The notes under the pieces were generated by a model, which saw nothing but the letters and a program-made list of their open reading frames with translations, was not told the DNA's origin and ran no database searches. A stretch of 64,000 nt of DNA from a phage. Shown here one piece after another: positions 4,602-35,870 of the stretch. The stretch is from sequence record MZ956763.1. One strand, 5' to 3'. The position numbers and the translations under genes are program-made. Within the stretch, counting starts at the first letter, position 1. The number at the start of each line of letters is the position of its first letter.

Positions 4602-4946
4602 ATGGACAACCTTTCCATATGGTTTAACAAGAAACCTGTGCAACCGAAATACTTACAAGTTGCCTATACAGACATCCTTGAAGTTCTCGGTAAAGAAAAG
4701 TTTGAAAAGTTTTGTGAAGGTATCTACAATCACCACTGCCAATTTGCTACAAAAGAGGGTATGTTTGTCATAGAACAGTTCTTTGGCAGAGACCAAGATG
4801 ACTATGAAGAGATTAGCTTTGTAATGAAATACATGATAGAGTATATTGAAAATCGTGGATTCGAAGTTAATCCTGAATTTTATGAACATGAGGGTGTACC
4901 TTTAGCAAAAGGTTTCGATGGCATACTCGTTAACTGGACTTGGTGA
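4602..4946 (+). CDS. hypothetical protein
   Basis: ORF 114 aa. Confidence 0.5.
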   Translation: MDNLSIWFNKKPVQPKYLQVAYTDILEVLGKEKFEKFCEGIYNHHCQFATKEGMFVIEQFFGRDQDDYEEISFVMKYMIEYIENRGFEVNPEFYEHEGVPLAKGFDGILVNWTW

Positions 4947-25250: not shown

Positions 25251-25715
25251 TTACTTTGGATATACACTGTCAAGATAAATGTCAGCTTCCATTCTACGTC
25301 TGTTTTTCAGACCGTTTGAAGTGACCTTCTTACCTTTGACTGTAACCTTGTTCCACCATTGCATAGCTTCTGCACAACCTGCCTTATTACCATCGTTGTG
25401 GCGCTTGATAAATGTAGAGTCCTGCATAGCTGTGATGCCAATGTTGTATGTTTCACTTACAAGTGCATCAAACTCGTTCTGAGAAGTTGGAACCTTGACG
25501 GATTTATTCACTGCTGCAACGAACTTTTCAACATCTGCGAGAAGATACTGTTCAGCTTGTTCAGCCGTGATTCTCATACCCATCTTAACAGGTTTACCAG
25601 CAATACGGATTGTCCCATACCCAATTGTAGGGATTCCGGCAGAATCTTCGTAAGCCTCTAGCTTAAGACCTTCAAAGAACTTAATAGCTTCTAAGCCTTT
25701 TCTTGAGAGTTGCAT
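25251..25715 (-). CDS. endolysin, T4-type lysozyme (GH24)
   Basis: FFEGLKLEAYEDSAGIPTIGYG carries the Glu/Asp/Thr catalytic triad spacing of T4 lysozyme family. Confidence 0.85.
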   Translation of the reverse strand: MQLSRKGLEAIKFFEGLKLEAYEDSAGIPTIGYGTIRIAGKPVKMGMRITAEQAEQYLLADVEKFVAAVNKSVKVPTSQNEFDALVSETYNIGITAMQDSTFIKRHNDGNKAGCAEAMQWWNKVTVKGKKVTSNGLKNRRRMEADIYLDSVYPK

Positions 25716-27100
25716 TATGCCTCCCCTGCTGGGTTAACTGTAACTGTTGCCGCATTAGATGTTACAGAGCCACCTGCACCAGTCACTACACAAGTGTAGC
25801 TTCCTGAATCAGCAGTGGTTGCACCTTCTTTGGTGTAAGTTGCAGCAGTTGCATCGAGGATGTCTTCCTCACCTTTCTTCCACTGGTAACCTGTCGCACC
25901 TGTTGCCGCAACATTCAGCGTTAAGGTCTCACCTTCAGTGATTTCTTGATTGGTTGGCTGTTGAGTGATTACTGGAAGTGCATTCACAGTAACCGTTGCT
26001 GCGTTAGATGTGACTGTTGTACCACCAGCACCAGTAACTACACAGGTGTAGGAACCAGCATCGGCAGGAACTGCGTTAGCTTTCGTGTAAGTCGCACCAG
26101 TTGCGCTAGGGATGTTCACATTGTCCTTTTTCCACTGGAAACCTTCCGCACCTGTCGCCTCAACACTCAGTGTCAAAGAGTTGCCCTCATTAACTACCTG
26201 ATTGGTTGGCTGCTTGGTAATAACTGGCAAAGCATTTACCGTGACAGTTGCAGGGCTAGAAGTAACAGAACCACCTGCACCTGTTACAACGCAAGTATAT
26301 GAACCTGCATCTGCTGGAAGCGCACCAGACTTGCTATAGGTAGCGTTTGTAGCTGAAGGAATGTCAGAGCCATCTTTCTTCCATTGGTAACCTGTTGCAC
26401 CTGTTGCAGTCACTTCCAAGTTGATGTTCCCACCCTCATTAACGGTCTGACCAGAAGGCTGCTGTGTAATCACAGGCAGTGCGTTGACAGTAACTGTTGC
26501 CGCATCTGAGGTAACACTTGTTCCAGCCTCTCCAGATACAACACAAGTGTATGAACCTGCATCAGAAGGTAATACAGACTGTTTTGTGTAGGTTGCAGAG
26601 GTGGCACTAGTGATATCCTCACCACCCTTTTTCCATTGATATCCAGTGGCATTCGTTGCAACAACACTTAGGGTAAGCGTACCACCTTCATTTACTGTTT
26701 GATTGGTTGGCTGCTGAGTGATTGCTGGTGGCTTGATAGCATCCTTCAACTTAGCATTCAACATTGAGAATGGTTTAACTCTTGCCAGCCATTCACAATA
26801 AACTGTATCAACATCTTTACCATTGATAATTGCATATTGTAAGTCCATGAAGAAGTCAGAAGTTCTCATTTGAGCACCAATGCTGTAAAGCAACTCATCA
26901 CTAAATGGAACTTTGTAGTCTGGTTTGTAGTCAAACTCCTCAACTTCTGCAATATCAGCTTCAGGCCAATACGAACTATAGGTAAGCGGTAAAATAGCCT
27001 CTTGATATGTTCTAAAATCATATCTCTTACCAGCTTTTACGTTTGCAATGAAGCCCTTCACAAACTCTTTGAAGTCTGGGTAAGTCTTTGCTTTAATCAT
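25715..27100 (-). CDS. protein with N-terminal domain plus tandem Ig-like (I-set-like) repeats
   Basis: repeated ~95-aa units NALPVITQQPTNQ..GATGYQWKK..ATYTK..ADAGSYTCVVTGAGG..TS.AATVTV; N-terminal ~120 aa paralogous to 27097..27468. Confidence 0.7.
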   Translation of the reverse strand: MIKAKTYPDFKEFVKGFIANVKAGKRYDFRTYQEAILPLTYSSYWPEADIAEVEEFDYKPDYKVPFSDELLYSIGAQMRTSDFFMDLQYAIINGKDVDTVYCEWLARVKPFSMLNAKLKDAIKPPAITQQPTNQTVNEGGTLTLSVVATNATGYQWKKGGEDITSATSATYTKQSVLPSDAGSYTCVVSGEAGTSVTSDAATVTVNALPVITQQPSGQTVNEGGNINLEVTATGATGYQWKKDGSDIPSATNATYSKSGALPADAGSYTCVVTGAGGSVTSSPATVTVNALPVITKQPTNQVVNEGNSLTLSVEATGAEGFQWKKDNVNIPSATGATYTKANAVPADAGSYTCVVTGAGGTTVTSNAATVTVNALPVITQQPTNQEITEGETLTLNVAATGATGYQWKKGEEDILDATAATYTKEGATTADSGSYTCVVTGAGGSVTSNAATVTVNPAGEA

Positions 27101-27468
27101 TTCTTTTTAGCCTCTAAATGTGCGTTTAGTCTAAAATAACCTTTGTGATGCGGAGATACGTCACCAACAACAATACCTTTCACCTTATAACCTTTACCAA
27201 TTACATACTGGATATCCATAAGAAATCTTCCAAGACCAACAATATGGAACATTGGATATAATAGATTCTCAGAGTCTGGAATATTGATTTCAGGTTTGTA
27301 GGTGCGTTGTTCGCTTGTTGGTGTAATATCTTCTTCAGGCCATTTGCTGAGTCTCCATGTCAAAGGTGTTGGTATAACATCATTAAGGCTGTACCTTTCA
27401 CCATTTTGCACGGAATTGATATAGGATTGTAGGAAGCAATAAAAGTCTTTTGCACTCTTAGCTTTCAT
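27097..27468 (-). CDS. hypothetical protein, paralog of N-terminal domain of Ig-repeat protein
   Basis: 123 aa, shared motifs with N-terminus of 25715..27100. Confidence 0.5.
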   Translation of the reverse strand: MKAKSAKDFYCFLQSYINSVQNGERYSLNDVIPTPLTWRLSKWPEEDITPTSEQRTYKPEINIPDSENLLYPMFHIVGLGRFLMDIQYVIGKGYKVKGIVVGDVSPHHKGYFRLNAHLEAKKK

Positions 27469-29097: not shown

Positions 29098-29178
29098 TTT
29101 TAAAAGGTGTTGACAGACTCTACAAAGTTACTCTAAAGTCTGTCACATCAAACAACAAATGAGAGAAGAGAGTAAAAT

Positions 29179-30594
29179 ATGAGCGAGTTATTTAAACATG
29201 CGCACCTTCATGCAGGTCGAACTGAAAATGGTGCTGTAAACCATACTTCATCAATGTCTGCTCTGGTAGACTTCTACAAAGCTGCTGGTTCAAGCCGTAG
29301 CAATGTAGAAATCTTACCAGACCTGTTCTACAAAGCTTTGCATGAGGATGTTGATGTTGCAGTTCGTATTTTACTGCATATGCGAGATGTACGAGAAGGT
29401 ATGGGTGAGCGTAAAGCCTTCAGGACTGTTTTGCTTCAAGCAATTGAAGATAAAGTTTTAGAGTCTACACAGGTTCTTCGCATTATGGATAAGATTGCAG
29501 AACTTGGTCGTTTTGATGACTTCAAAATCTTCGTAGGTACTCGCTTCGAGACAGATGCCTTCAAACATTTAGAAGCAGCATTACTAGACCCTGCAACAGC
29601 AGGTTTGGCAGCTAAGTGGTTGCCACGAGTCAAACCACGTCACAAACAGTTTGTAAAACGTTTCTGCAAGTTTGCCAACTTGAGTGAGAAAGAGTACCGC
29701 ACACTGTTGTCTGCACTATCTGATACAGTTGAGCAAAAAATCTCTGCTAATGAGTTTGGCAAGATTGACTACAGCAAGATTCCTTCACTTGCTGCTGCAC
29801 GTTACCAAAAACTGTTTAACCGTAAAGATGGAGAACGCTACAAAGCTTACATTGAGTCTTTATCAAAAGGTGAGACTAAGATTAACGCTGGTGCTGTTTA
29901 CCCATACGATGTGATTAAATCTGTCAAGCATGGTAATGCAGATGTTGCTAATGAGCAGTGGAAAGCACTACCAAACTGGATGGCAGAAGGTGAAAACATC
30001 TTGTGTATGACTGATGTTTCAAGCTCAATGTCTTGGGTGAATTTTGGCTCCATTACTGCTCTGGATATTGGTGTATCACTTGCATTGTATGTGGCAGAAC
30101 GCAATACAGGTTGCTTTAAGAATGAGTTGATGGTTTATTCAACAAACCCTCACTTCATCGAACTTAGTGGTGATTTACGAAACCGCCATCGTCAGGTGAT
30201 GCGACATGTTGAATATGGTTCAACTAACTTACAAGCAGCTTTTGACCGTATTCTTGAGACAGGTAAAAGAAACAACTTGACTCAGAAAGATATGCCAAGT
30301 AAGCTTATCATCTTCTCCGATATGGAGTTCAATCAGGTTGATGGAGCTAACGGTCGTACAAACTTTGAAGCAATTCAGAGTAAGTACAAGAAAGCTGGAT
30401 ACGAAATGCCACAACTGGTATTCTGGTACTTAGCAAACCGTAATGGTACTTGCGAAGTGTCTGTTAAGGATAACGGTGTAGCAATGGTATCTGGTTTCTC
30501 TCCAGCCACTTTAAAAGCTCTGCTTGGTGGTGAGAAGTTTGACCCAATCAGCGTAATGCTCAAAGCAGTAATGATTGACCGCTATATCTGGTAA
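29179..30594 (+). CDS. vWA-domain protein, candidate Ro60/TROVE-like (Rsr-like) RNA-binding protein
   Basis: 471 aa; MIDAS-like DxSxS (MTDVSSSMS) with downstream T and D (IIFSDMEF); ~270-aa helical N-terminal region; placed immediately upstream of tRNA/structured-RNA cluster. Confidence 0.5.
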   Translation: MSELFKHAHLHAGRTENGAVNHTSSMSALVDFYKAAGSSRSNVEILPDLFYKALHEDVDVAVRILLHMRDVREGMGERKAFRTVLLQAIEDKVLESTQVLRIMDKIAELGRFDDFKIFVGTRFETDAFKHLEAALLDPATAGLAAKWLPRVKPRHKQFVKRFCKFANLSEKEYRTLLSALSDTVEQKISANEFGKIDYSKIPSLAAARYQKLFNRKDGERYKAYIESLSKGETKINAGAVYPYDVIKSVKHGNADVANEQWKALPNWMAEGENILCMTDVSSSMSWVNFGSITALDIGVSLALYVAERNTGCFKNELMVYSTNPHFIELSGDLRNRHRQVMRHVEYGSTNLQAAFDRILETGKRNNLTQKDMPSKLIIFSDMEFNQVDGANGRTNFEAIQSKYKKAGYEMPQLVFWYLANRNGTCEVSVKDNGVAMVSGFSPATLKALLGGEKFDPISVMLKAVMIDRYIW

Positions 30595-30613
30595 AAAGTT
30601 TTAAAAAGGGTAT

Positions 30614-30642
30614 TGACAATGTGTTTGATACCCTTTAATATG
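30614..30642 (+). promoter_or_regulatory. sigma70-like promoter TTGACA-17-TAATAT upstream of tRNA cluster
   Basis: near-consensus hexamers with 17-nt spacer. Confidence 0.6.
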
Positions 30643-30759
30643 TTCTACATAGAAACGAAACGAGAGCTTTTCTAAGATACTGAAAAATATTTTAAAAAAG
30701 TTCTTGACAATCACTAAAAAATAATGTTAAAGTGGTTACATAGAGTTTGAAAAGTTTAT

Positions 30760-30836
30760 CTCTGTTTAGCTCAGCTTGGTAGAGCGTTCCGTTTGGGGCG
30801 GTAAGGCCGGAGGTTCAAGTCCTCCAACAGAGACCA
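30760..30836 (+). tRNA. tRNA-Pro (anticodon TGG)
   Basis: acceptor CTCTGTT/AACAGAG, T-arm GGAGG-TTCAAGT-CCTCC, anticodon loop TTTGGGG, CCA encoded. Confidence 0.8.
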
Positions 30837-30843
30837 AATTAAT

Positions 30844-30921
30844 GTTCCAGTAGACAAAATGGTAAAGTCACCACTCTTTCAAAGTGGATATCTGAGGGTT
30901 CAAATCCCTTCTGGAACGCCA
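30844..30921 (+). tRNA. tRNA-Glu (anticodon TTC)
   Basis: acceptor GTTCCAG/CTGGAAC, anticodon arm CCACT-CTTTCAA-AGTGG, T-loop TTCAAAT. Confidence 0.8.
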
Positions 30922-30926
30922 GTTTT

Positions 30927-31003
30927 GACAGAAGACCAATTACAGCAAACTTAATCTTATTCATCTGAAGGTAAATCGGACAAAGAAGAGATTTGGTCTG
31001 GTC
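30927..31003 (+). ncRNA. structured element A (conserved ACAGAAGACC...GGTCTGG terminal stem)
   Basis: 5' GACAGAAGACCAATTACAGCAA, 3' ATTTGGTCTGGTC; family members at 31095, 31576, 31663. Confidence 0.45.
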
Positions 31004-31013
31004 ATTAAGAATT

Positions 31014-31089
31014 GCGGGTATAGAGAAAGGGCGTCTCACATGTCTCATTAGCATGGTATCGGCAGGTTCGACTCCTGCACCCGCCTCCA
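31014..31089 (+). tRNA. tRNA-Met (anticodon CAT)
   Basis: D-stem GAGA/TCTC, anticodon arm CATGT-CTCATTA-GCATG, T-arm GCAGG-TTCGACT-CCTGC; acceptor pairing imperfect by eye. Confidence 0.65.
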
Positions 31090-31094
31090 AATTT

Positions 31095-31160
31095 ACAGAA
31101 GACCGTTTACAGCAATATTTATTAAATTTTTAGCGGAAAAATTGAAAGATACGGTCTGGT
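31095..31160 (+). ncRNA. structured element B (ACAGAAGACCG...CGGTCTGG stem)
   Basis: same terminal stem motif and TTACAGCAA box as element A. Confidence 0.45.
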
Positions 31161-31172
31161 AATACTAAACAT

Positions 31173-31249
31173 GGTTAGGAAGCACATAAGGTATGTGCGG
31201 TCGCCTGTTAAGCGAATGGCACAGGGTTCGAATCCCTGACTAACCGCCA
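31173..31249 (+). tRNA. tRNA-Asn (anticodon GTT)
   Basis: acceptor GGTTAGG/ACTAACC, D-stem GCAC/GTGC, loop CTGTTAA, T-arm CAGGG-TTCGAAT-CCCTG. Confidence 0.8.
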
Positions 31250-31318
31250 AATTTAGGAGAGAAGCGATTGCTCACCGATTTGTAAGGTGCAAGTCCTTAG
31301 CCTGAATAGAAATTAAAT

Positions 31319-31405
31319 GTGTCGTTATCCCGTAGATGGTAGCGGTGGGGACTGTAAATCCCTTGTCATTGAGACTCGGTAGGTTCGACTCCTACACGGC
31401 ACACC
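31319..31405 (+). tRNA. tRNA-Tyr (anticodon GTA), class II
   Basis: acceptor GTGTCGT/ACGGCAC, anticodon arm GGGGA-CTGTAAA-TCCCT, long variable arm, T-loop TTCGACT. Confidence 0.75.
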
Positions 31406-31411
31406 AATAAA

Positions 31412-31489
31412 GGCTATGTAGTTTAATAGGGTTAAAATACTCCCCTGTCACGGGAGATGATGTGAGTTCAAGTCTCATCGTAGCCGCCA
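31412..31489 (+). tRNA. tRNA-Asp (anticodon GTC)
   Basis: acceptor GGCTATG/CGTAGCC, anticodon arm CTCCC-CTGTCAC-GGGAG, T-loop TTCAAGT. Confidence 0.8.
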
Positions 31490-31575
31490 AATTATAATAA
31501 GTATTTCAAAATGATGTTTTGAGAGGGCTATTTAGCCCCTCCCTTAAAGAGTTCTTACGAGTATTCTTTAAAGGA

Positions 31576-31651
31576 GCAGAAGACCAAATACAGCAAGTTA
31601 CTTAAAATTTCAAGCCAATTTAATTTTGAAAAATTTAAAACTTGGTCTGGC
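31576..31651 (+). ncRNA. structured element C (GCAGAAGACCAAATACAGCAA...TTGGTCTGG)
   Basis: same terminal stem motif family. Confidence 0.45.
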
Positions 31652-31662
31652 TCAACAAATTT

Positions 31663-31794
31663 ACAGAAGACCGTTTACAGCAAAACTTAAACAATCTATT
31701 TCTCGGTAAAGAAAAGGAGAAGGTTCGATTCCTTCACTCGGCAGATGTCGAGTTGGTGTAATGGTAGCACTTAAGATGGTAAACAACGGTCTGG
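31663..31794 (+). ncRNA. structured element D with internal permuted tRNA-like domain (candidate YrlA-like Y RNA)
   Basis: terminal stem ACAGAAGACCGTTT/AAACAACGGTCTGG; internal order T-arm (GAAGG-TTCGATT-CCTTC), acceptor 3' strand ACTCGGC, loop AGAT, acceptor 5' strand GTCGAGT, D-arm GTGTAATGGTAGCAC. Confidence 0.5.
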
Positions 31795-31938
31795 TAATTA
31801 TCTTTGTAGATAAGTTATTAAGCTTACCTGTGAGTATGCGACCACAAAGGGTGAAAGGGTAAATTCTAGATTTAAACCCAAAAAGGCACATCGCTACAGA
31901 CCTTAAGCAAGTCTGGGTAGCTTATCTACAAAGATAAT
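31795..31938 (+). repeat. 19-bp perfect inverted repeat flanking a 106-nt segment
   Basis: AATTATCTTTGTAGATAAG at 31795-31813 and exact reverse complement CTTATCTACAAAGATAATT at 31920-31938. Confidence 0.85.
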
Positions 31939-31943
31939 TTAAT

Positions 31944-32019
31944 GGAAGTGTAGCAGAATGGTGATGCGGCAGACTTTTAATCTGACAGGCGATGGGTTCG
32001 AATCCCTCCACTTCTACCA
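31944..32019 (+). tRNA. tRNA-Lys (anticodon TTT)
   Basis: acceptor GGAAGTG/CACTTCT, anticodon arm GCAGA-CTTTTAA-TCTGA, T-loop TTCGAAT; T-stem weak by eye. Confidence 0.65.
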
Positions 32020-32023
32020 AAAT

Positions 32024-32100
32024 GGTTCAGTCGCAGATAAGGTAATGCAAGGGTTTCATAAGCCCTATGAATGTGGGTTCGATTCCCATCTGAACCTCCA
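32024..32100 (+). tRNA. tRNA with CAT anticodon (Met, fMet or Ile-lysidine)
   Basis: acceptor GGTTCAG/CTGAACC, anticodon arm AGGGT-TTCATAA-GCCCT, T-arm GTGGG-TTCGATT-CCCAT. Confidence 0.7.
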
Positions 32101-32102
32101 AT

Positions 32103-32177
32103 TGTGGGTTAGCATAAATGGTAATGCAAACGGCTGATAACCGTTAGAAGAGGGTTCGATACCCTCACCTACAACCA
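32103..32177 (+). tRNA. tRNA-Ile (anticodon GAT)
   Basis: acceptor TGTGGGT/ACCTACA, D-stem GCAT/ATGC, anticodon arm AACGG-CTGATAA-CCGTT, T-loop TTCGATA. Confidence 0.8.
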
Positions 32178-32192
32178 ATTTCAATAGAGTTG

Positions 32193-32221
32193 TTGACATT
32201 GAGATGTGACTACTTTATAGT
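32193..32221 (+). promoter_or_regulatory. sigma70-like promoter TTGACA-17-TATAGT inside tRNA cluster
   Basis: consensus -35, good -10; followed by ~290 nt without tRNA. Confidence 0.55.
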
Positions 32222-32514
32222 AACTAAAATACTTCACAATATGTATAATTCAAACACCAATACATGAGCGTTAGACGTAACACAATGTGGGGAAATTTGT
32301 TGTACATATTCTGAATAGTTTTCGTTGCGTAGCGTCTATTTTGCAAATTTAAAATAAATGCAAACGACAATGTTTTTCTGGCAGTAGCTTGATAGGCTAA
32401 ACACCAGTGAGGTCTTCCAATCCCTCATCAAAGAATTTGGCGTACTCGCCCACGGTATGATTAATAAGGTGGGCATCTTTAAGGGCTTTCTAAGAGAGTC
32501 TTTAAAGATAATTA

Positions 32515-32596
32515 CGGGGCGTATCTCAGCGGTCTTCTAAACCGCCGTTAACCGAGTAAGTGGAGTATGCGGGTTCGAGTCCTGCCGCCTCGACCA
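32515..32596 (+). tRNA. atypical tRNA-like gene, possible tRNA-Arg (anticodon TCT)
   Basis: acceptor CGGGGCG/CGCCTCG + A + CCA, T-arm GCGGG-TTCGAGT-CCTGC, arm GCGGT-CTTCTAA-ACCGC; no canonical D-arm found by eye, 23-nt segment before T-arm. Confidence 0.45.
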
Positions 32597-32738
32597 ATTT
32601 AGTTAGCAGATTACTTAGACGACCTAAGCGGGTCTTCCTGTAGGGAGGTGGTCTGTATCTCATGTTTTCCAGAACATGTAAATAATCTGAGAAGGGGCTT
32701 TACAGTGTTGAGATAATACGGTAAGCTTCGAATTATAG

Positions 32739-32822
32739 TGTGGGACGATGTTAAGACTCTAAGGCATGAGCAACGGCCTCCAAAACCGTTTCAAAGGGGT
32801 TCAACTCCTCCGTCCCATGCCA
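32739..32822 (+). tRNA. atypical tRNA, possible tRNA-Trp (anticodon CCA)
   Basis: acceptor GTGGGAC/GTCCCAT + G + CCA, anticodon arm ACGGC-CTCCAAA-ACCGT, T-loop TTCAACT; D-region ~8 nt longer than canonical. Confidence 0.5.
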
Positions 32823-32835
32823 AAGTCTTATTAGG

Positions 32836-32923
32836 GGTAGGTAGCGGCTAATGGCAGCCAAACAGTCTTGAAAACTGTTGCCACTGTAGAGATACGGTGA
32901 GGGTTCGACTCCTTTACTTACCG
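32836..32923 (+). tRNA. tRNA-Ser (anticodon TGA), class II
   Basis: acceptor GGTAGGT/ACTTACC, anticodon arm ACAGT-CTTGAAA-ACTGT, 20-nt variable arm, T-arm GAGGG-TTCGACT-CCTTT. Confidence 0.7.
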
Positions 32924-33180
32924 CCTAATAAGATTTAAAGCCAAGCTTCATTCGGATGTCGCTTTGGTATCCCGCGTGTATTGTCGTACACACTGATAAA
33001 ACACCTAGTAGGTGTCACGGAGAAGAGATAATATCAAGCTCTCCAAAGGTTCTAGTCACCGGATTAAACAAGACTATGCAAAGACCTTTTTAGGTCTTTT
33101 TAGAGGGCTTCTAAGGTTATTACAGCTTGTTGTGGAACCTTGTTGCTTAGGTTCTTAGAAGTTCTCTAAAAAGATTTAAT

Positions 33181-33258
33181 GGGAGATTGACGGTAATTGG
33201 TAAACCTACCATCCTTAGAAGTTGGTGTTTGAGGGTTCGAATCCCTTGTCTCCTACCA
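33181..33258 (+). tRNA. tRNA with TAG anticodon (Leu by anticodon) but short variable arm
   Basis: acceptor GGGAGAT/GTCTCCT + A + CCA, anticodon arm CCATC-CTTAGAA-GTTGG, T-arm GAGGG-TTCGAAT-CCCTT, variable ~5 nt. Confidence 0.55.
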
Positions 33259-33265
33259 AATTAAT

Positions 33266-33341
33266 GCAGGTGTAGCAAAATGGTTATGCGGCTGACTCTT
33301 AATCAGTAAGACGATGGGTTCAATTCCCTCCACCTGTACCA
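33266..33341 (+). tRNA. tRNA-Lys (anticodon CTT)
   Basis: paralog of 31944 tRNA; acceptor GCAGGTG/CACCTGT, anticodon arm GCTGA-CTCTTAA-TCAGT. Confidence 0.65.
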
Positions 33342-33347
33342 GACATT

Positions 33348-33423
33348 GGGGTCATAGTTTATATGGTTAAAATTCGAGTTTTGCAAACTTGGGAACTGAG
33401 TTCAATTCTCAGTGACTCCACCA
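33348..33423 (+). tRNA. tRNA-Ala (anticodon TGC)
   Basis: acceptor GGGGTCA/TGACTCC, anticodon arm CGAGT-TTTGCAA-ACTTG, T-arm CTGAG-TTCAATT-CTCAG. Confidence 0.8.
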
Positions 33424-33429
33424 ATTAGT

Positions 33430-33504
33430 GCATCCATAGTTTAAACGGGAAAATTACAGTCTTCCAAACTGAGGTTGAGGGTTCGATTCCCTCTGGATGC
33501 TCCA
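33430..33504 (+). tRNA. tRNA-Gly (anticodon TCC)
   Basis: acceptor GCATCCA/TGGATGC, anticodon loop CTTCCAA, T-arm GAGGG-TTCGATT-CCCTC. Confidence 0.8.
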
Positions 33505-33511
33505 AATTAAT

Positions 33512-33587
33512 GCTCCTATCGTATAATAGGCTATTACGGTTGCCTTGTAAGCAACTTATCAGGGTTCGAATCCTTGTGGGAGCACCA
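33512..33587 (+). tRNA. tRNA-Thr (anticodon TGT)
   Basis: acceptor GCTCCTA/TGGGAGC, anticodon arm GTTGC-CTTGTAA-GCAAC, T-loop TTCGAAT. Confidence 0.8.
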
Positions 33588-33590
33588 ATT

Positions 33591-33677
33591 CAGAGGTCAA
33601 GTGAAAGACCGCTGGTGTCAACTGAAGACCGTAACAAATTCCACGGAGTTGAGTTAGCGGCACAACTTCAGACCTCT
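33591..33677 (+). ncRNA. structured element E (CAGAGGTC...GACCTCT stem, internal AAGACCG boxes)
   Basis: inverted repeat AGAGGTC/GACCTCT enclosing ~70 nt containing two copies of the GAAGACCG box. Confidence 0.35.
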
Positions 33678-33681
33678 TTCA

Positions 33682-33757
33682 CACTCGCTTAGTTTATATG
33701 GTAAAACACCACCCTTACAAGATGAAGAAAAAGGTTCAAGTCCTTTAGTGAGTACCA
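33682..33757 (+). tRNA. tRNA-like gene, possibly tRNA-Val (TAC) or pseudogene
   Basis: acceptor ACTCGCT/AGTGAGT + A + CCA, D-stem GTTT/AAAC, T-arm AAAGG-TTCAAGT-CCTTT; anticodon-region CCACC-CTTACAA-GATGA does not pair. Confidence 0.4.
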
Positions 33758-33758
33758 T

Positions 33759-33836
33759 GTTCCAGTATCCCAATTGGCAGAGGATGCAAGCTCAAACCTT
33801 GTATTAGTGACGGTTCGAATCCGTCTTGGAACACCA
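33759..33836 (+). tRNA. tRNA with CAA anticodon (Leu by anticodon) but short variable arm
   Basis: acceptor GTTCCAG/TTGGAAC + A + CCA, anticodon arm GCAAG-CTCAAAC-CTTGT, T-arm GACGG-TTCGAAT-CCGTC, variable 6 nt. Confidence 0.6.
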
Positions 33837-33855
33837 ATTTTAAGAGGCTATTTAG

Positions 33856-34413
33856 ATGAGATATTTGAAGTATGCTTCATGGATTTTCCTAGCTTTACTA
33901 GAGCCATTTGCAGCAACCCTATCAGTCATCTTAGCACCTTTCGTAGTTCCATTCTACAGTGAGAAGAAAGGACACCTACCTTTTGGATTCAGATGGATGG
34001 AGACCTATGACAACCCAATTGATGGTGATGAAGGTCACGTTAAAAGATGGGCTAAGATTAGAAAGATTGGTAAGCTGGGTGTCTACATGCAGAGAGTTGG
34101 ATGGCTCTGGAGAAACAAAGCTTATAACTTCTCTTACCATGTATTAGGAAGAGATGTAAAAGATGTTACTAAGTGGAAAGGTAATATCAACGTAAGTTCT
34201 GACCCTGAAGATAATCAGACAGGTTATCTCCTAATGTGGAACAACAATGCTTGGGGATTATTCGCTTTTATTCCGTCAATTAAAATCTTTGGTAAACAGT
34301 TTTACTGGAGAATTTATGTTGGATGGAAACTAAAAAGTGTTGTCCCAGAAGAAAGAGCATTCTCAAGGGAAAGAGTTATGTTGGCATTCTTTATTCATCC
34401 ACTGAGAAAGTAA
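33856..34413 (+). CDS. hypothetical membrane-associated protein encoded inside tRNA cluster
   Basis: ORF 185 aa, hydrophobic N-terminus (WIFLALLEPFAATLSVILAPFVVPF), Trp/Lys-rich. Confidence 0.45.
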   Translation: MRYLKYASWIFLALLEPFAATLSVILAPFVVPFYSEKKGHLPFGFRWMETYDNPIDGDEGHVKRWAKIRKIGKLGVYMQRVGWLWRNKAYNFSYHVLGRDVKDVTKWKGNINVSSDPEDNQTGYLLMWNNNAWGLFAFIPSIKIFGKQFYWRIYVGWKLKSVVPEERAFSRERVMLAFFIHPLRK

Positions 34414-34421
34414 AGATTTAA

Positions 34422-34497
34422 AGGGGATTAGTTTACAAGGTTAAAACCTCGGTCTTTGAAATCGAAGAAGTTGGTTCAATTCCAACATCCCCAGCCA
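34422..34497 (+). tRNA. tRNA-Gln (anticodon TTG)
   Basis: D-stem GTTT/AAAC, anticodon arm TCGGT-CTTTGAA-ATCGA, T-arm GTTGG-TTCAATT-CCAAC, 3' ATCCCCA-G-CCA. Confidence 0.7.
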
Positions 34498-34499
34498 AT

Positions 34500-34579
34500 G
34501 CTCCATTACTCCAATTGGCAGAGAGGCCAGACTTAAAATCTGTGTTATGTATCGGTTCGAATCCGATATGGAGTACCAA
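34500..34579 (+). tRNA. tRNA with TAA anticodon (Leu by anticodon) but short variable arm
   Basis: acceptor GCTCCAT/ATGGAGT + A + CCA, anticodon arm CCAGA-CTTAAAA-TCTGT, T-arm ATCGG-TTCGAAT-CCGAT. Confidence 0.6.
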
Positions 34580-34584
34580 TTTTA

Positions 34585-34660
34585 GCGGTATAGCATAATT
34601 GGCAATGCAACAGTCTCTGAAGCTGTCCTATTAAGGTTCAAATCCTTATACCGCTGCCAC
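34585..34660 (+). tRNA. tRNA-Gln (anticodon CTG)
   Basis: acceptor AGCGGTA/TACCGCT, D-stem GCAT/ATGC, anticodon arm ACAGT-CTCTGAA-GCTGT, T-arm TAAGG-TTCAAAT-CCTTA. Confidence 0.7.
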
Positions 34661-34691
34661 TTCTAAGGGTTCTTACGAGAGTCCTTAAATG

Positions 34692-34767
34692 TGGCCTTAT
34701 CATAAATGGTAATGACCCATGCTGTGAACATGGTCTATACGGGTTCAAATCCCGTAGGTCACCCCAA
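34692..34767 (+). tRNA. tRNA-His (anticodon GTG)
   Basis: acceptor GTGGCCT/AGGTCAC, D-stem TCAT/ATGA, anticodon arm CCATG-CTGTGAA-CATGG, T-arm ACGGG-TTCAAAT-CCCGT. Confidence 0.8.
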
Positions 34768-34772
34768 TTTAT

Positions 34773-34849
34773 AGTCCAAGTAGCTTATATGGTTAAAGCG
34801 CGTGTCTGAAAAACATGAGAAGAGGGTTCAAATCCCACTGGACTACCAA
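34773..34849 (+). tRNA. tRNA-Phe (anticodon GAA)
   Basis: acceptor TAGTCCA/TGGACTA, anticodon arm CGTGT-CTGAAAA-ACATG, T-loop TTCAAAT; 3' CCA not fully encoded. Confidence 0.7.
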
Positions 34850-34864
34850 TTTCAAAGGTGCTTA

Positions 34865-35599
34865 ATGAAAGAGATGACAGAACAAGGTAAGGAGATTTTT
34901 AATCTCTTAAAAACCGGTAAAGGGTTTTCTAACCCACTTATTACTGGTGCAGCAGTTCTCGGTGGAACCGTAGCTGCCTCTACATCACTTGTAAGCTCTA
35001 TTAGCTCTGTAACAGACCCTACAATGAATGAGAAACTTGTTGCTGCTGGACTTACAACAGTCCTTCTAAACAGCTTTACAACAAGCCTGACAAGCACTAC
35101 AGCAACTACTAAGACCCTAACAGACTATGGTCAAAAGTCTATTGATGAGTTTTCATCACGTATGCAGGTAGCAAAGGGATACTCCAATGTTATGGGTGCA
35201 GCAGGAGAACAAGTTGGTTGTACACCGTTCAGTGGTATTATGGGTGTTGCTACAGAATATGGTCAAAAAGCTATTGATACGATTAACAGTACACTAGAGA
35301 GTGTTAACGATGTATTAAGTGACTTACAAGACGCTATTGACAAGGGTCTTGATACTGTTTCTGATTTAGCTAACCAAGCTGTCAGTAAGATTAATGAAGG
35401 TATCTCAAAGATTACAGCTTATGCAGATGAAGTTGTGCAGATGATTGAAGAAGAAGCTGCCCTTATTGCAGAGTACCTTAAAACGAATATCAATGGGTTC
35501 TTAGCAGGTATCTTACCAGACTGGTTTGATGATGCTTGTAAAACTGGTGTGATTGACACTATTGCAACACCAGAAATGAAGAACGCATTACAGAAATAA
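34865..35599 (+). CDS. hypothetical Ser/Thr/Ala-rich protein (between tRNA-Phe and tRNA-Ser)
   Basis: start moved to ATG 34865 (MKEMTEQG..) because ORF-track start lies inside tRNA-Phe; 244 aa. Confidence 0.5.
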   Translation: MKEMTEQGKEIFNLLKTGKGFSNPLITGAAVLGGTVAASTSLVSSISSVTDPTMNEKLVAAGLTTVLLNSFTTSLTSTTATTKTLTDYGQKSIDEFSSRMQVAKGYSNVMGAAGEQVGCTPFSGIMGVATEYGQKAIDTINSTLESVNDVLSDLQDAIDKGLDTVSDLANQAVSKINEGISKITAYADEVVQMIEEEAALIAEYLKTNINGFLAGILPDWFDDACKTGVIDTIATPEMKNALQK

Positions 35600-35600
35600 T

Positions 35601-35693
35601 GGAAGATTAACCCTAAAAGGTAAGGGAGCAGTTTGCTAAACTGCCAGTAGCTGAGAAATCGGTGTACCAGTTCAAGTCTGGTATCTTCCTCCA
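35601..35693 (+). tRNA. tRNA-Ser (anticodon GCT), class II
   Basis: acceptor GGAAGAT/ATCTTCC + T + CCA, anticodon arm GCAGT-TTGCTAA-ACTGC, 21-nt variable arm, T-arm ACCAG-TTCAAGT-CTGGT. Confidence 0.8.
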
Positions 35694-35697
35694 ATTT

Positions 35698-35773
35698 GAA
35701 TCCGTGACAGAAATGGCTATGTGCCTGTCTGCAAAACAGGTTTATAAGGGTTCGAGTCCCTTCGGATTCTCCA
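35698..35773 (+). tRNA. tRNA-Cys (anticodon GCA)
   Basis: acceptor GAATCCG/CGGATTC + T + CCA, anticodon arm CCTGT-CTGCAAA-ACAGG, T-arm AAGGG-TTCGAGT-CCCTT. Confidence 0.8.
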
Positions 35774-35810
35774 AGTTATTTTACTCTCTCTCAATTAAAA
35801 TAATAATAAT

Positions 35811-35870
35811 GCCCTGCTATAAGTATTCTTCCTTTCGCTACCGAAGAGTATTTTTAGACAGGGCTTTTTT
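35811..35870 (+). terminator. intrinsic terminator closing the tRNA cluster
   Basis: long hairpin GCCCTG...CAGGGC followed by TTTTTT. Confidence 0.65.

What the first reader, a model, noticed from the sequence alone, without database searches (positions are those of the whole stretch)
29179..35870. Candidate phage Ro60-like (vWA/TROVE?) protein placed directly upstream of a tRNA array that carries Y-RNA-like structured elements
The 471-aa protein at 29179..30594 has a clear vWA MIDAS signature (DVSSSMS ... T ... IIFSDMEF) behind a ~270-aa helical N-terminal region, the overall layout of Ro60/Rsr proteins. Immediately downstream, the tRNA cluster contains at least four non-tRNA elements sharing a conserved terminal stem (ACAGAAGACC(G/A).. 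/ ..GGTCTGG); one has a tRNA-mimicking core. In bacteria, Rsr genes are typically adjacent to Y RNAs, some of which (YrlA) mimic tRNA. If correct, this is a phage-encoded Ro60/Y-RNA ribonucleoprotein co-transcribed with tRNAs.
Basis: partly seen in the sequence, partly recalled or inferred. Interest (0 to 1): 0.88.

Follow-up and report, generated by a model that had tools for sequence, protein, structure and literature searches.

The report
Phage Ro60-like protein with partner RNAs
This Felix O1-type phage encodes a distant structural relative of the Ro60 RNA-binding protein, followed by four unannotated small structured RNAs hidden between its tRNA genes; the same RNA module sits beside this protein's gene in many unrelated phages and closely resembles the unexplained Class I RNAs of Dictyostelium.

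The parts
29110..29139 (+). sigma-70-like promoter candidate upstream of the Ro60-like gene (TTGACA-18-TAAAGT)
   Evidence: Consensus scan, 10 of 12 matches. The total number of sites in the region is not above the shuffle expectation, so this is only a candidate.
29179..30594 (+). Ro60-like RNA-binding protein gene: 471 aa, DUF2828 + DUF7788, helical repeat N-domain plus vWA domain with a complete MIDAS motif; ortholog of Bas63 gp130
30605..30636 (+). 12-bp hairpin just after the stop codon (weak terminator-like), overlapping a promoter-like site
30613..30733 (+). two TTGACA-type promoter-like sites (30613-30641 and 30704-30733) in front of the tRNA/RNA array
   Evidence: sequence
30926..31004 (+). 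E1, short module RNA: outer stem UGAC/GUCA, AGA bulge, inner stem AGACCAA/UUGGUCU, UUACAGCAA, variable interior
   Evidence: Rfam RF01414 19.7 bits at 30934-31000; conserved in Mooglevirus with a diverged interior
31093..31162 (+). E2, short module RNA: outer stem UUAC/GUAA, inner stem AGACCGU/ACGGUCU
   Evidence: RF01414 20.1 bits at 31101-31158; own CM R1 31.7 bits, E 2e-4; the outer stem covaries in L010 and L012 (UGC/GCA)
31574..31653 (+). E3, short module RNA: outer stem GAGC/GCUC, inner stem AGACCAA/UUGGUCU
31661..31797 (+). E4, long module RNA with a YrlA-like circularly permuted tRNA domain
   Evidence: Fold -36.4 kcal/mol, z -2.9. Module found. ARAGORN calls the permuted form a tRNA in 101 of 216 junction variants but does not call the native form. 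Homologous long elements elsewhere hit Rfam YrlA below threshold.
31686..31775 (+). tRNA-like core of E4: junction stem CUUA/UAAG, variable-arm hairpin, T arm 31719-31735, acceptor-like 7-bp hairpin 31736-31753, D arm 31756-31770
   Evidence: The acceptor-like hairpin covaries: window ACUCGGC/GUCGAGU, Sf19 ACACG/CGUGU, HP1 ACCCUUC/GAAGGGU.
30760..35773 (+). tRNA array (24 ARAGORN tRNAs) in which E1-E4 are embedded; genomic and probably transcriptional context

Best explanation
The 471-aa protein is a highly divergent member of the Ro60 structural superfamily, on the DUF2828/DUF7788 branch. E1-E4 are its cognate small non-coding RNAs, the functional analogues of Y RNAs. The RNAs are probably transcribed with the phage tRNAs from promoters just downstream of the gene and cut out of the precursor by the tRNA-processing machinery (inferred). 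Their shared terminal module is the most likely docking site for the protein, by analogy with the conserved Y-RNA stem bound by Ro60 (inferred). That module is a 7-bp stem whose second pair is an invariant G-C, followed by single-stranded UUACAGCAA, closed at the 3' end by CUG and in this phage extended by an outer 4-bp stem. The variable interiors, and the permuted tRNA domain of E4, would be the effector or decoy ends. They could recruit or occupy tRNA-binding or RNA-decay enzymes, as YrlA and Yrn1 do with PNPase (inferred). The ribonucleoprotein would act early in infection on RNA metabolism and counter-defence. The Bas63 ortholog gp130 is an experimentally shown inhibitor of the Ppl defence system (from the paper). 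Shown here: the fold of the protein; the existence, structure and covariation of the RNAs; and their strand-specific, reciprocal genomic linkage to the gene across very distant phages. Not shown: RNA accumulation, binding, and any biochemical activity.

For: RNA. There are four exact copies of the 19-nt motif, against 0 of 100 shuffles reaching four, and all share one fold. Yersinia phage P778 (protein 53% identical) has four homologous elements with compensatory stem changes. In 82 non-redundant loci, signature elements number 76 near the gene on the same strand, 1 near it on the opposite strand, and 0 far away on the opposite strand; 51 of 82 loci have at least one. Among candidates chosen by the 5' motif alone, 88 of 132 have their own 3' partner, against 5.0 expected; on the opposite strand the figure is 0 of 14. 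Six of the 7 stem pairs show changes on both sides, with 202 double-change cells against 54+-11 in shuffles. Many loci have the element directly beside the gene with no tRNA within 5 kb. No protein neighbour is conserved in more than 16 of 82 loci.

Reverse search. The 16-mer WGGTTCCTTACAGCAA in IMG/VR gives 60 structured sites. 41 of them have the gene on the same strand, 40 within 18-416 nt, and none on the opposite strand. Only 3 of 28 unstructured matches have the gene.

tRNA-like class. 13 of 35 long elements have a canonical T arm, against 1 of 57 short ones. Long elements give sub-threshold YrlA hits of 25-39 bits on the tRNA-like core.

Precedent. Thermus phage phiLo Ro60 binds two adjacent Y-like RNAs and PNPase (PMC12135203). 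YrlA RNAs lie within 4 kb and on the same strand as Ro60 in 254 bacteria and 22 phages (PMC4201824).
Against: There is no TROVE or VWA hit by sequence, and the profile-versus-PDB hit to Ro60 has only E 0.86. No Rfam Y_RNA or YrlA hit appears in the window at E<=10, and the GNCGAA/CGAA Ro-binding motif is absent. So docking to this protein rests on genomic linkage and analogy only. In PhageMaP, gp130 alone restored T7 plaquing on a Ppl strain, whether expressed from a plasmid or inserted in T7. The phage's own RNAs are therefore not needed for that activity. 31 of 82 loci, including Vibrio phage phi-Grn1 and most Clostridia-type loci, show no element under the strict descriptor. No expression data were available. 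The pair statistics were computed on elements selected for pairing; the non-circular test is.
Confidence: 0.68

Rival explanations
1. The elements are genuine structured RNAs but work independently of the Ro60-like protein. For example, they could be decoys or sponges for host tRNA-targeting defence nucleases, tRNA-modifying enzymes or another host RNA-binding protein. On this view they sit beside the gene only because both belong to the same early 'RNA module' of the phage.
For: gp130 alone counters Ppl in T7 without the RNAs. The tRNA-like domain of E4 could be recognised directly by tRNA enzymes. In Dictyostelium the similar Class I RNA DdR-21 is bound directly by an RRM protein, Rnp1A/CIBP. 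About half of the loci place both gene and elements in tRNA arrays.
Against: The elements track the gene, not the tRNA arrays. Many loci have an element 5-30 nt from the gene and no tRNA within 5 kb. The linkage is strand-specific and reciprocal over protein identities down to about 33%. No other conserved neighbour exists that could be the partner.
Confidence: 0.14
2. The module is a cis-acting signal rather than a trans-acting RNA. It could be a processing or stability element of the tRNA precursor or of the gene's mRNA, or an autoregulatory operator through which the protein controls its own or the array's expression.
For: In many loci a single element lies immediately upstream or downstream of the gene, 5-30 nt away. 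In the window each element directly follows a tRNA 3' end. The outer stems would bring the processing sites together.
Against: Up to 8 tandem copies occur per genome (L005). Elements lie either upstream or downstream of the gene. Interiors include elaborate conserved tRNA-like domains with covarying hairpins. A discrete ~60-nt unit with conserved ends is the design of a stable small RNA, as in Y RNAs and Class I RNAs.
Confidence: 0.08
3. The elements are selfish or decaying sequences: miniature repeats, degenerate or permuted tRNA pseudogenes, or terminators. They would have no dedicated function, and the Ro60 resemblance of the protein would be incidental to them.
For: Public annotations call some neighbouring features tRNA-OTHER or pseudo-tRNA. 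The array also holds other degenerate tRNA-like pieces (32515-32593 and 32742-32816).
Against: The stems keep pairing through about 200 double substitutions while the interiors diverge. UUACAGCAA is invariant across hosts from Mycobacterium to Campylobacter. There are 92 signature sites on the gene strand and 1 on the other. No T-run terminator signature is present.
Confidence: 0.04

Closest known systems
Bacterial Ro60 (Rsr) with YrlA/Yrn1 Y RNAs (Chen et al. 2014, PMC4201824; Rfam RF02553)
   Same: The protein is a helical-repeat plus vWA/MIDAS protein with the Ro60 fold. The small RNAs are encoded within about 1.2 kb on the same strand. Their 5' and 3' ends pair into a conserved terminal stem. 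There are several RNAs per genome, of which one (E4) carries a permuted tRNA-like domain with T arm, acceptor-like hairpin and D arm.
   Different: There is no TROVE Pfam match, and the N-domain is about 80 residues shorter. The RNA lacks the GNCGAA(N)G motif and has UUACAGCAA instead. The window gives no RF02553 hit at E<=10. Related long elements reach only 25-39 bits (gathering score 69) and match only in the tRNA-like core, not in the terminal stems.
Thermus phage phiLo phiRo60 with Yrl1/Yrl2 (PMC12135203; PDB 9l5y, 9kop)
   Different: phiRo60 is a canonical TROVE protein and its RNAs carry the CGAA motif. Here the protein is of DUF2828 type, the RNA module is different, and the RNAs are embedded in a tRNA array.
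Bas63 (JohannRWettstein) gp130, PhageMaP preprint 2024 (PMC11482910)
   Same: It is the ortholog: 97.9% identical, with the same position upstream of the tRNA array. The authors noted the structural similarity to Ro60 and showed that gp130 counters the Ppl defence system.
   Different: They only speculated that 'some tRNA genes are possibly Y RNAs'. The candidates found here are not the annotated tRNAs. They are four unannotated elements between the tRNAs, partly covered by spurious CDS bas63_0137/0138.
Dictyostelium Class I RNAs (Rfam RF01414; Kjellin et al. 2021, PMC7919456)
   Same: Both are about 60 nt and multi-copy. Both have a short terminal stem conserved in structure but not in sequence, with a conserved 5' G paired to a 3' C. 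Both have an A-rich 5' flank (AAG) and a 3' CUG(U). Both have an 11-nt motif CCUUACAGCAA directly after the 5' stem strand, of which UUACAGCAA is shared, and a variable interior. The Rfam model gave 13 hits, all coinciding with elements next to DUF2828 genes, at 19-31 bits.
   Different: All hits are below the gathering score of 41.5. Class I RNAs are eukaryotic, have their own DUSE promoters, and were reported as restricted to Dictyostelia. Their only proven direct binder is the RRM protein Rnp1A. Whether Dictyostelium has a DUF2828 protein could not be checked here.

Membership tests
Ro60 / TROVE protein family | Sequence match to the TROVE domain (Pfam PF05731) | tested here: not met
   hmmscan against Pfam at E<=1 gives only DUF2828 and DUF7788. 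A profile of 54 homologs against PDB sequences gives Ro60 1yvp at E 0.86, in the vWA part only.
Ro60 / TROVE protein family | Helical-repeat domain followed by a vWA domain, with overall Ro60 fold | tested here: met
Ro60 / TROVE protein family | MIDAS motif (DxSxS...T...D) in the vWA domain | tested here: met
   D279, S281, S283, T349 and D381 are invariant in 54 homologs.
Ro60 / TROVE protein family | Binds Y RNA on the outer surface and misfolded RNA in the cavity | not testable with these tools
   Needs RIP/EMSA or a structure.
DUF2828/DUF7788 family (PHROG 850) | Pfam PF11443 and PF25043 above the gathering score | tested here: met
   103.6 bits (cut-off 29) and 148.5 bits (cut-off 27.1). 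PHROG 850 E 9e-184 over the full length.
Bacterial Y RNA / YrlA (Rfam RF02553) | Covariance-model score at or above the gathering score (69 bits) | tested here: not met
   No hit in window 30590-33200 at E<=10. Positive control: the model is in the library and hits homologous long elements in other phages at 25-39 bits.
Bacterial Y RNA / YrlA (Rfam RF02553) | Encoded within 4 kb of the Ro60 gene on the same strand | tested here: met
   E1-E4 start 332-1067 nt downstream of the stop codon, on the same strand. The caveat is that the gene is Ro60-like only by structure.
Bacterial Y RNA / YrlA (Rfam RF02553) | GNCGAA(N0-1)G motif in the 5' strand of the terminal stem | tested here: not met
   No GNCGAA and not even CGAA in E1-E4.
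Bacterial Y RNA / YrlA (Rfam RF02553) | tRNA-like domain (T arm, acceptor-like stem-loop, D arm) joined to the terminal stem | tested here: met
   E4 only: fold; the permuted construct is called a tRNA by ARAGORN; the acceptor-like hairpin covaries.
Dictyostelium Class I RNA (Rfam RF01414) | Covariance-model score at or above the gathering score (41.5 bits) | tested here: not met
   Window E2 20.1 bits and E1 19.7 bits. The best relatives reach 30.7, 29.8, 29.6 and 28.9 bits.
Dictyostelium Class I RNA (Rfam RF01414) | Short 5'/3' terminal stem with a conserved 5' G, an adjacent 11-nt motif, a variable interior, a 3' CUGU, and a length of about 42-65 nt | tested here: inconclusive
   The stem with G-C (73 of 73), UUACAGCAA (9 of the 11 nt), the A-rich 5' flank and the 3' CUG are all present. 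Median stem-to-stem length is 63 nt. The window copies add an outer stem and end in CUGG.
Dictyostelium Class I RNA (Rfam RF01414) | Dictyostelid origin with a DUSE promoter | tested here: not met
   The sequence is a Felixounavirus, and the candidate promoters are of sigma-70 type.
tRNA | Recognised as a tRNA by ARAGORN or Rfam RF00005 | tested here: not met
   E1-E4 are not called, and native E4 is not called.

The most novel reading that the evidence does not exclude
The stem-UUACAGCAA RNAs could define a third, previously unrecognised branch of the Ro/Y-RNA world, in which DUF2828-type Ro-like proteins are paired with 'Class I-like' RNAs. This pairing would span tailed phages of Gram-negative, Gram-positive and actinobacterial hosts and reach into eukaryotes. 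On this reading the abundant Class I RNAs of Dictyostelium, regarded as unique to dictyostelids and of unknown mechanism, would be homologs or mimics of the phage RNAs and ligands of a DUF2828 protein. The uncharacterised DdR-21 pull-down protein DDB_G0281243 is one candidate. The module might have been acquired from phage, bacterial or giant-virus sources.
Probability: 0.3. Interest if true: 0.92.

Novelty: new variant of a known kind. Interest (0 to 1): 0.8.

Why it matters
DUF2828 'RNA-binding' or 'vWFA' proteins are found in at least 710 sequenced phages, including Felix O1-like, mycobacteriophage cluster L, Listeria A511-like, Campylobacter, Staphylococcus and Vibrio jumbo phages. One ortholog is a proven counter-defence factor. 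This work names concrete, testable RNA partners with a defined recognition module. That turns a vague 'Ro60-like' annotation into an experimentally tractable ribonucleoprotein. It also shows that RNA genes have been overlooked, or mis-annotated as CDS, inside well-studied therapeutic phage genomes. If the link to Dictyostelium Class I RNAs holds, it would give a 20-year-old orphan RNA class a candidate protein partner and an evolutionary origin.

Tried and rejected
1. Sequence-level tests for Ro60 membership failed: Pfam TROVE/VWA, phmmer and a profile against PDB sequences, and NCBIfam. Only structure comparison shows the relationship.

2. Rfam at gathering thresholds found nothing but tRNAs.

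3. MAFFT on full-length elements misaligned the 3' strands (A3). I therefore used a fixed-register trimmed alignment (A4).

4. My own covariance model R1, built from the trimmed modules, cannot bridge the long variable interiors. It found only E2 with default filters and noise with filters off, so I dropped it in favour of an explicit descriptor with strand, shuffle and position controls.

5. A loose first descriptor was too noisy to interpret.

6. I looked for a conserved protein neighbour such as an RNA ligase, RtcB or a nuclease. None is present in more than 16 of 82 loci.

7. I could not check whether Dictyostelium encodes a DUF2828 protein or what DDB_G0281243 is. The afdb50 library was unavailable. 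Avesson 2011 and Burroughs & Aravind 2016 are not held. A literature search for the gene id found nothing new. The Kjellin supplementary proteomes are truncated, and motif searches in them were negative or irrelevant. Searches for the Pfam and InterPro ids found only plant papers.

8. I considered and rejected terminators (no T-run signature) and coding ORFs (only short antisense ORFs overlapping tRNAs).


Full report
WHAT THE WINDOW IS. The stretch 29179-32200 is 95-97% identical to many Felix O1-like phages (Felixounavirus) of Salmonella and E. coli. 244 of 301 matching phage records cover at least 80% of it. The ORF at 29179-30594 is annotated in those records as 'hypothetical', 'vWFA protein', 'DUF2828 family protein' or 'RNA-binding protein'. 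None of the records I inspected annotates anything at the four elements. Some instead place short, evidently spurious CDS over them: bas63_0137/0138, Sf19_gp24 and HP1_22.

CHECK OF THE OBSERVATION. The 471-aa ORF is present. ARAGORN finds 24 tRNAs at 30760-35773, all on the + strand. The 19-nt pattern AGAAGACCRNNTACAGCAA occurs exactly four times in 64 kb, all on the + strand, at 30930, 31097, 31578 and 31665. None of 100 dinucleotide shuffles gives four matches even with three mismatches allowed. Each copy is followed 50-120 nt later by GGTCTGG. RNAfold gives all four the same terminal architecture:
- a 4-bp outer stem that differs between copies but stays paired (UGAC/GUCA, UUAC/GUAA, GAGC/GCUC, UUAC/GUAA);
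- a 3-nt AGA bulge opposite a single G;
- a 7-bp inner stem (AGACCRN/NYGGUCU);
- the single-stranded sequence UUACAGCAA.

E4 (31661-31797) contains, in this order, a 4-bp junction stem, a long hairpin in the place of a variable arm, a perfect T arm (GAAGG-UUCGAUU-CCUUC, 31719-31735), a 7-bp hairpin (ACUCGGC-AGAU-GUCGAGU) and a D arm (GUGU-AAUGGUA-GCAC). This is a tRNA that has been circularly permuted: its acceptor ends are closed by a loop and its anticodon loop is replaced by the terminal module. ARAGORN does not call native E4. It does call the re-permuted sequence a tRNA, with a 7-bp acceptor stem, D arm and T arm, in 101 of 216 junction variants. It also calls the corresponding constructs from Citrobacter phage HP1 and Mycobacterium phage MiniMac.

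The family is large. tblastn finds it in 710 phage records, from Escherichia and Salmonella to Vibrio, Campylobacter, Listeria, Staphylococcus, Enterococcus, Bacillus and Mycobacterium phages. In mycobacteriophages it is already annotated 'Ro-like RNA binding protein'. BFVD shows structural homologs in giant viruses: Pithovirus, CroV, Marseillevirus and Mimiviridae. Canonical TROVE phage proteins are more distant than these in that search.

WHAT WAS ALREADY KNOWN. The PhageMaP preprint (PMC11482910) reports three things about Bas63 gp130. It resembles Ro60 structurally, it lies upstream of the tRNAs, and it counters the Ppl defence system. The authors speculate that 'some tRNA genes are possibly Y RNAs'. 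Bas63 is phage JohannRWettstein, and bas63_0130 is the 97.9%-identical ortholog of the window ORF. That paper also shows that gp130 alone, from a plasmid or inserted into T7, restores plaquing on a Ppl strain. Chen et al. 2014 found YrlA RNAs next to TROVE-annotated genes in 254 bacteria and 22 phages. A 2025 paper shows that Thermus phage phiLo Ro60 binds two adjacent Y-like RNAs and host PNPase. In the library available to me I found no description of the four elements or of their conserved module.

COMPARATIVE EVIDENCE FOR THE RNAs. Mooglevirus phages Sf19 and HP1 keep all four elements with identical modules but diverged interiors. The acceptor-like hairpin of E4 changes by compensation: ACUCGGC/GUCGAGU becomes ACACG/CGUGU and ACCCUUC/GAAGGGU. 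Yersinia phage P778, whose protein is 53% identical, has four elements downstream of its gene. Their inner stems are GGACUGU/ACAGUCC, GGAUUC/GAAUCC and GGACUC/GAGUCC, followed by UUACAGCAA or AUUCAGCAA, and one of them carries a T arm. More distant phages also have the module:
- Aeromonas phage LAh_6 has eight copies upstream of the gene.
- Campylobacter phage F374 has two copies between tRNA-Tyr and the gene.
- Mycobacterium phage MiniMac has three copies downstream, the middle one with a complete permuted tRNA.

All copies obey one register: a 7-nt 5' strand at positions -10 to -4 relative to CAGCAA, a 3-nt linker (usually UUA), and a 7-nt 3' strand followed by G.

QUANTIFICATION. I fetched 80 IMG/VR loci encoding homologs, mostly 38-48% identical, and scanned 82 non-redundant sequences with that descriptor. 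'Signature' elements have a partner strand, G at -9, and G after the 3' strand. Their counts were 76 within 1.5 kb of the gene on its strand, 1 within 1.5 kb on the other strand, 3 and 0 inside the gene, and 13 and 0 farther away. 51 of 82 loci have at least one near the gene. As a non-circular test I selected candidates by the 5' sequence only ([AT]G[AG]N7CAGCAA). There are 132 on the gene strand against 14 on the other. 88 of the 132 have their own 3' partner plus G, against 5.0 expected after shuffling the downstream sequence, and 0 of the 14 do. On a gapless alignment of 73 distinct modules, 6 of the 7 pairs change on both sides. There are 202 double-change cells against 54+-11 in shuffles (0 of 500 reach the observed value), and slid controls pair at 30-41%. 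The second pair is G-C in all 73. The U at position -2 is conserved in 81 of 85 although the descriptor does not require it. The pairing percentage itself is inflated by selection, so one search is the fair test.

The elements follow the gene rather than tRNAs. About half of the loci have tRNA arrays next to the gene. Many others have an element 5-30 nt from the gene and no tRNA within 5 kb. No protein-coding neighbour is shared by more than 16 of 82 loci. In 80 bacterial or MAG contigs with homologs, the near-gene counts are 28 on the gene strand against 1 on the other. The reverse search also holds. The 16-mer WGGTTCCTTACAGCAA occurs 88 times in IMG/VR. Of the 60 occurrences that have a 3' partner, 41 have a DUF2828 homolog on the same strand in the DNA held, 40 of them within 18-416 nt, and none on the opposite strand. 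Several of the remaining 19 lie at the edge of the held DNA. Of the 28 occurrences without a partner, only 3 have the gene.

TWO SIZE CLASSES AND TWO RFAM ECHOES. Stem-to-stem lengths have a median of 63 nt. 35 elements are 95 nt or longer, and 13 of these have a canonical T-arm hairpin, against 1 of 57 short ones. Rfam contains YrlA (RF02553). It hits the long elements of other phages below threshold: MiniMac 37.7 bits, L031 39.2, and L083 38.9, 28.7 and 25.2, against a gathering score of 69. The alignments match in the T arm, acceptor hairpin and D arm but not in the terminal stems. The window's E4 does not reach E<=10.

The short elements repeatedly hit RF01414, the Dictyostelium Class I RNA family. 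There are 13 hits at 19-31 bits (gathering score 41.5). All are on the gene strand, every one coincides with a descriptor element, and none lies elsewhere in about 104 kb searched on both strands. The Rfam consensus is GaUcuC-CUUACAGCAA-(variable)-GagAuC-UG. Kjellin et al. 2021 describe Class I RNAs as follows:
- 42-65 nt long and multi-copy;
- starting AAG and ending CUGU;
- a 6-bp terminal stem conserved in structure rather than sequence, with an invariant 5' G pairing to the C of CUGU;
- an adjacent 11-nt motif and a variable interior;
- 'no evidence ... in any other organism'.

The phage consensus derived here is (A)A-[A/U]G[G/A]NNNN-NUU[A/U]CAGCAA...NNNN[C/U]C[U/A]-G(U). It matches each of these points, and some copies, such as AAAGGUUCCUUACAGCAA, carry the complete 11-nt motif. 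The DdR-21 pull-down recovered GuaB, NdkC, the RRM protein Rnp1A/CIBP (a direct binder) and DDB_G0281243, of unknown function. DUF2828 proteins exist in plants and in mimivirus-like giant viruses. I could not determine whether Dictyostelium has one, so this link stays a hypothesis.

HOW IT MOST LIKELY WORKS. Shown: a protein with the Ro60 fold, and a family of covarying small RNAs genetically coupled to its gene. Inferred from the Ro60/Y-RNA paradigm (Stein 2005; Chen 2013/2014; the phiLo study): the terminal stem plus UUACAGCAA docks on the protein, and the variable or tRNA-like ends engage other factors. In the window the RNAs are probably made as part of the tRNA precursor. A hairpin at 30605-30636 and TTGACA-type promoter-like sites at 30613 and 30704 lie between the stop codon and tRNA-Pro, no promoter-like site separates E1-E4 from the flanking tRNAs, and each element starts 4-5 nt after a tRNA 3' end. 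These promoter calls are consensus matches only. The one known biological output is inhibition of Ppl. The protein can do that without the phage RNAs, so the RNAs may tune, target or extend its activity rather than being obligatory for it. For that reason, and because binding is untested, I give the ribonucleoprotein model 0.68.

RIVALS. I considered three alternatives: RNAs acting independently of the protein as decoys (0.14), a cis-acting processing or regulatory signal (0.08), and functionless repeats or pseudo-tRNAs (0.04). The reasons for and against each are given in the Rival explanations section.

NOVELTY AND VERDICT. The protein's resemblance to Ro60 and its anti-defence role are published for the ortholog, and phage Ro60/Y-RNA pairs are known. 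What appears to be new is fourfold:
- the identification of the actual RNA partners as unannotated elements, not the tRNAs;
- their recognition module, which differs from canonical Y RNAs;
- the breadth of the gene-RNA linkage across phage diversity;
- the resemblance to Dictyostelium Class I RNAs.

I classify it as a new variant of a known kind, with high interest.

Noticed in passing
window 32515-32593: A tRNA-like sequence scores 31.7 bits with Rfam tRNA but is not called by ARAGORN. Its anticodon loop reads CUUCUAA (UCU, Arg) and it has an unusually long variable region of about 23 nt. Shigella phage Sf19 annotates tRNA-Arg(TCT) at the equivalent place.
   Followed up: partly
window 32742-32816: A weak tRNA-Sec-like hit (23 bits) has a good acceptor stem (GUGGGAC/GUCCCAU) and T arm. 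It may be another degenerate or unusual tRNA; public records label such pieces tRNA-OTHER or pseudo.
   Followed up: no
window 31796-31939: A 22-nt inverted repeat (95% complementary) encloses 100 nt directly after E4. Inside it lies a mini hairpin, CUACAGAC-CUUAAGCAA-GUCUGGGUAG (about 31895-31925), that looks like a collapsed copy of the module. It is not conserved in Mooglevirus.
   Followed up: partly
window 33090-33179, 32222-32326 and 32475-32509: Further long inverted repeats (arms of 26, 27 and 17 nt) lie in the non-tRNA gaps of the array. The first caused a spurious Rfam MIR473 hit. Their function is unknown.
   Followed up: no
window 34802-35599 and 33856-34413: Two conserved phage ORFs (DUF7217 and DUF7338) sit inside the tRNA array. 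The listed GTG start of the DUF7217 ORF overlaps tRNA-Phe (34773-34848), so the true start is probably the internal ATG about 20 codons downstream.
   Followed up: no
window 25715-27468 (- strand): A 461-aa protein has four tandem Ig-like repeats (...QWKK...GSYTCVV...). It is preceded by a 123-aa ORF whose sequence is paralogous to its N-terminal domain. It looks like a Hoc-like capsid decoration protein.
   Followed up: no
L088 3930-4204 (Bas63), L002 2650-2778 (Sf19), L003 3139-3267 (HP1): Public annotations place short hypothetical CDS (bas63_0137/0138, Sf19_gp24, HP1_22) over or next to the RNA elements. These are probably artefacts of calling genes in apparently empty gaps of the tRNA array.
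   Followed up: partly
L061 4734-4833: In one IMG/VR phage the module stem plus CAGCAA encloses a sequence that ARAGORN calls a normal, non-permuted tRNA-Thr (4753-4824). This is a different way of joining the module to a tRNA.
   Followed up: no
L031 10696-10922; L035 1257-1707; L039 10822-11176: Environmental phage contigs fetched for comparison contain a group I intron (Rfam 71.5 bits) and two ARAGORN-called tmRNAs.
   Followed up: no
L004 6487-7011 and L005 10070-10993: In Vibrio phage phi-Grn1 the gene is followed directly by a DUF458 RNase H-like protein, and no module was found nearby. In Aeromonas phage LAh_6 an RNA ligase 2 lies 3.7 kb downstream. These hint at an RNA repair or processing context but are not conserved across loci.
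   Followed up: partly
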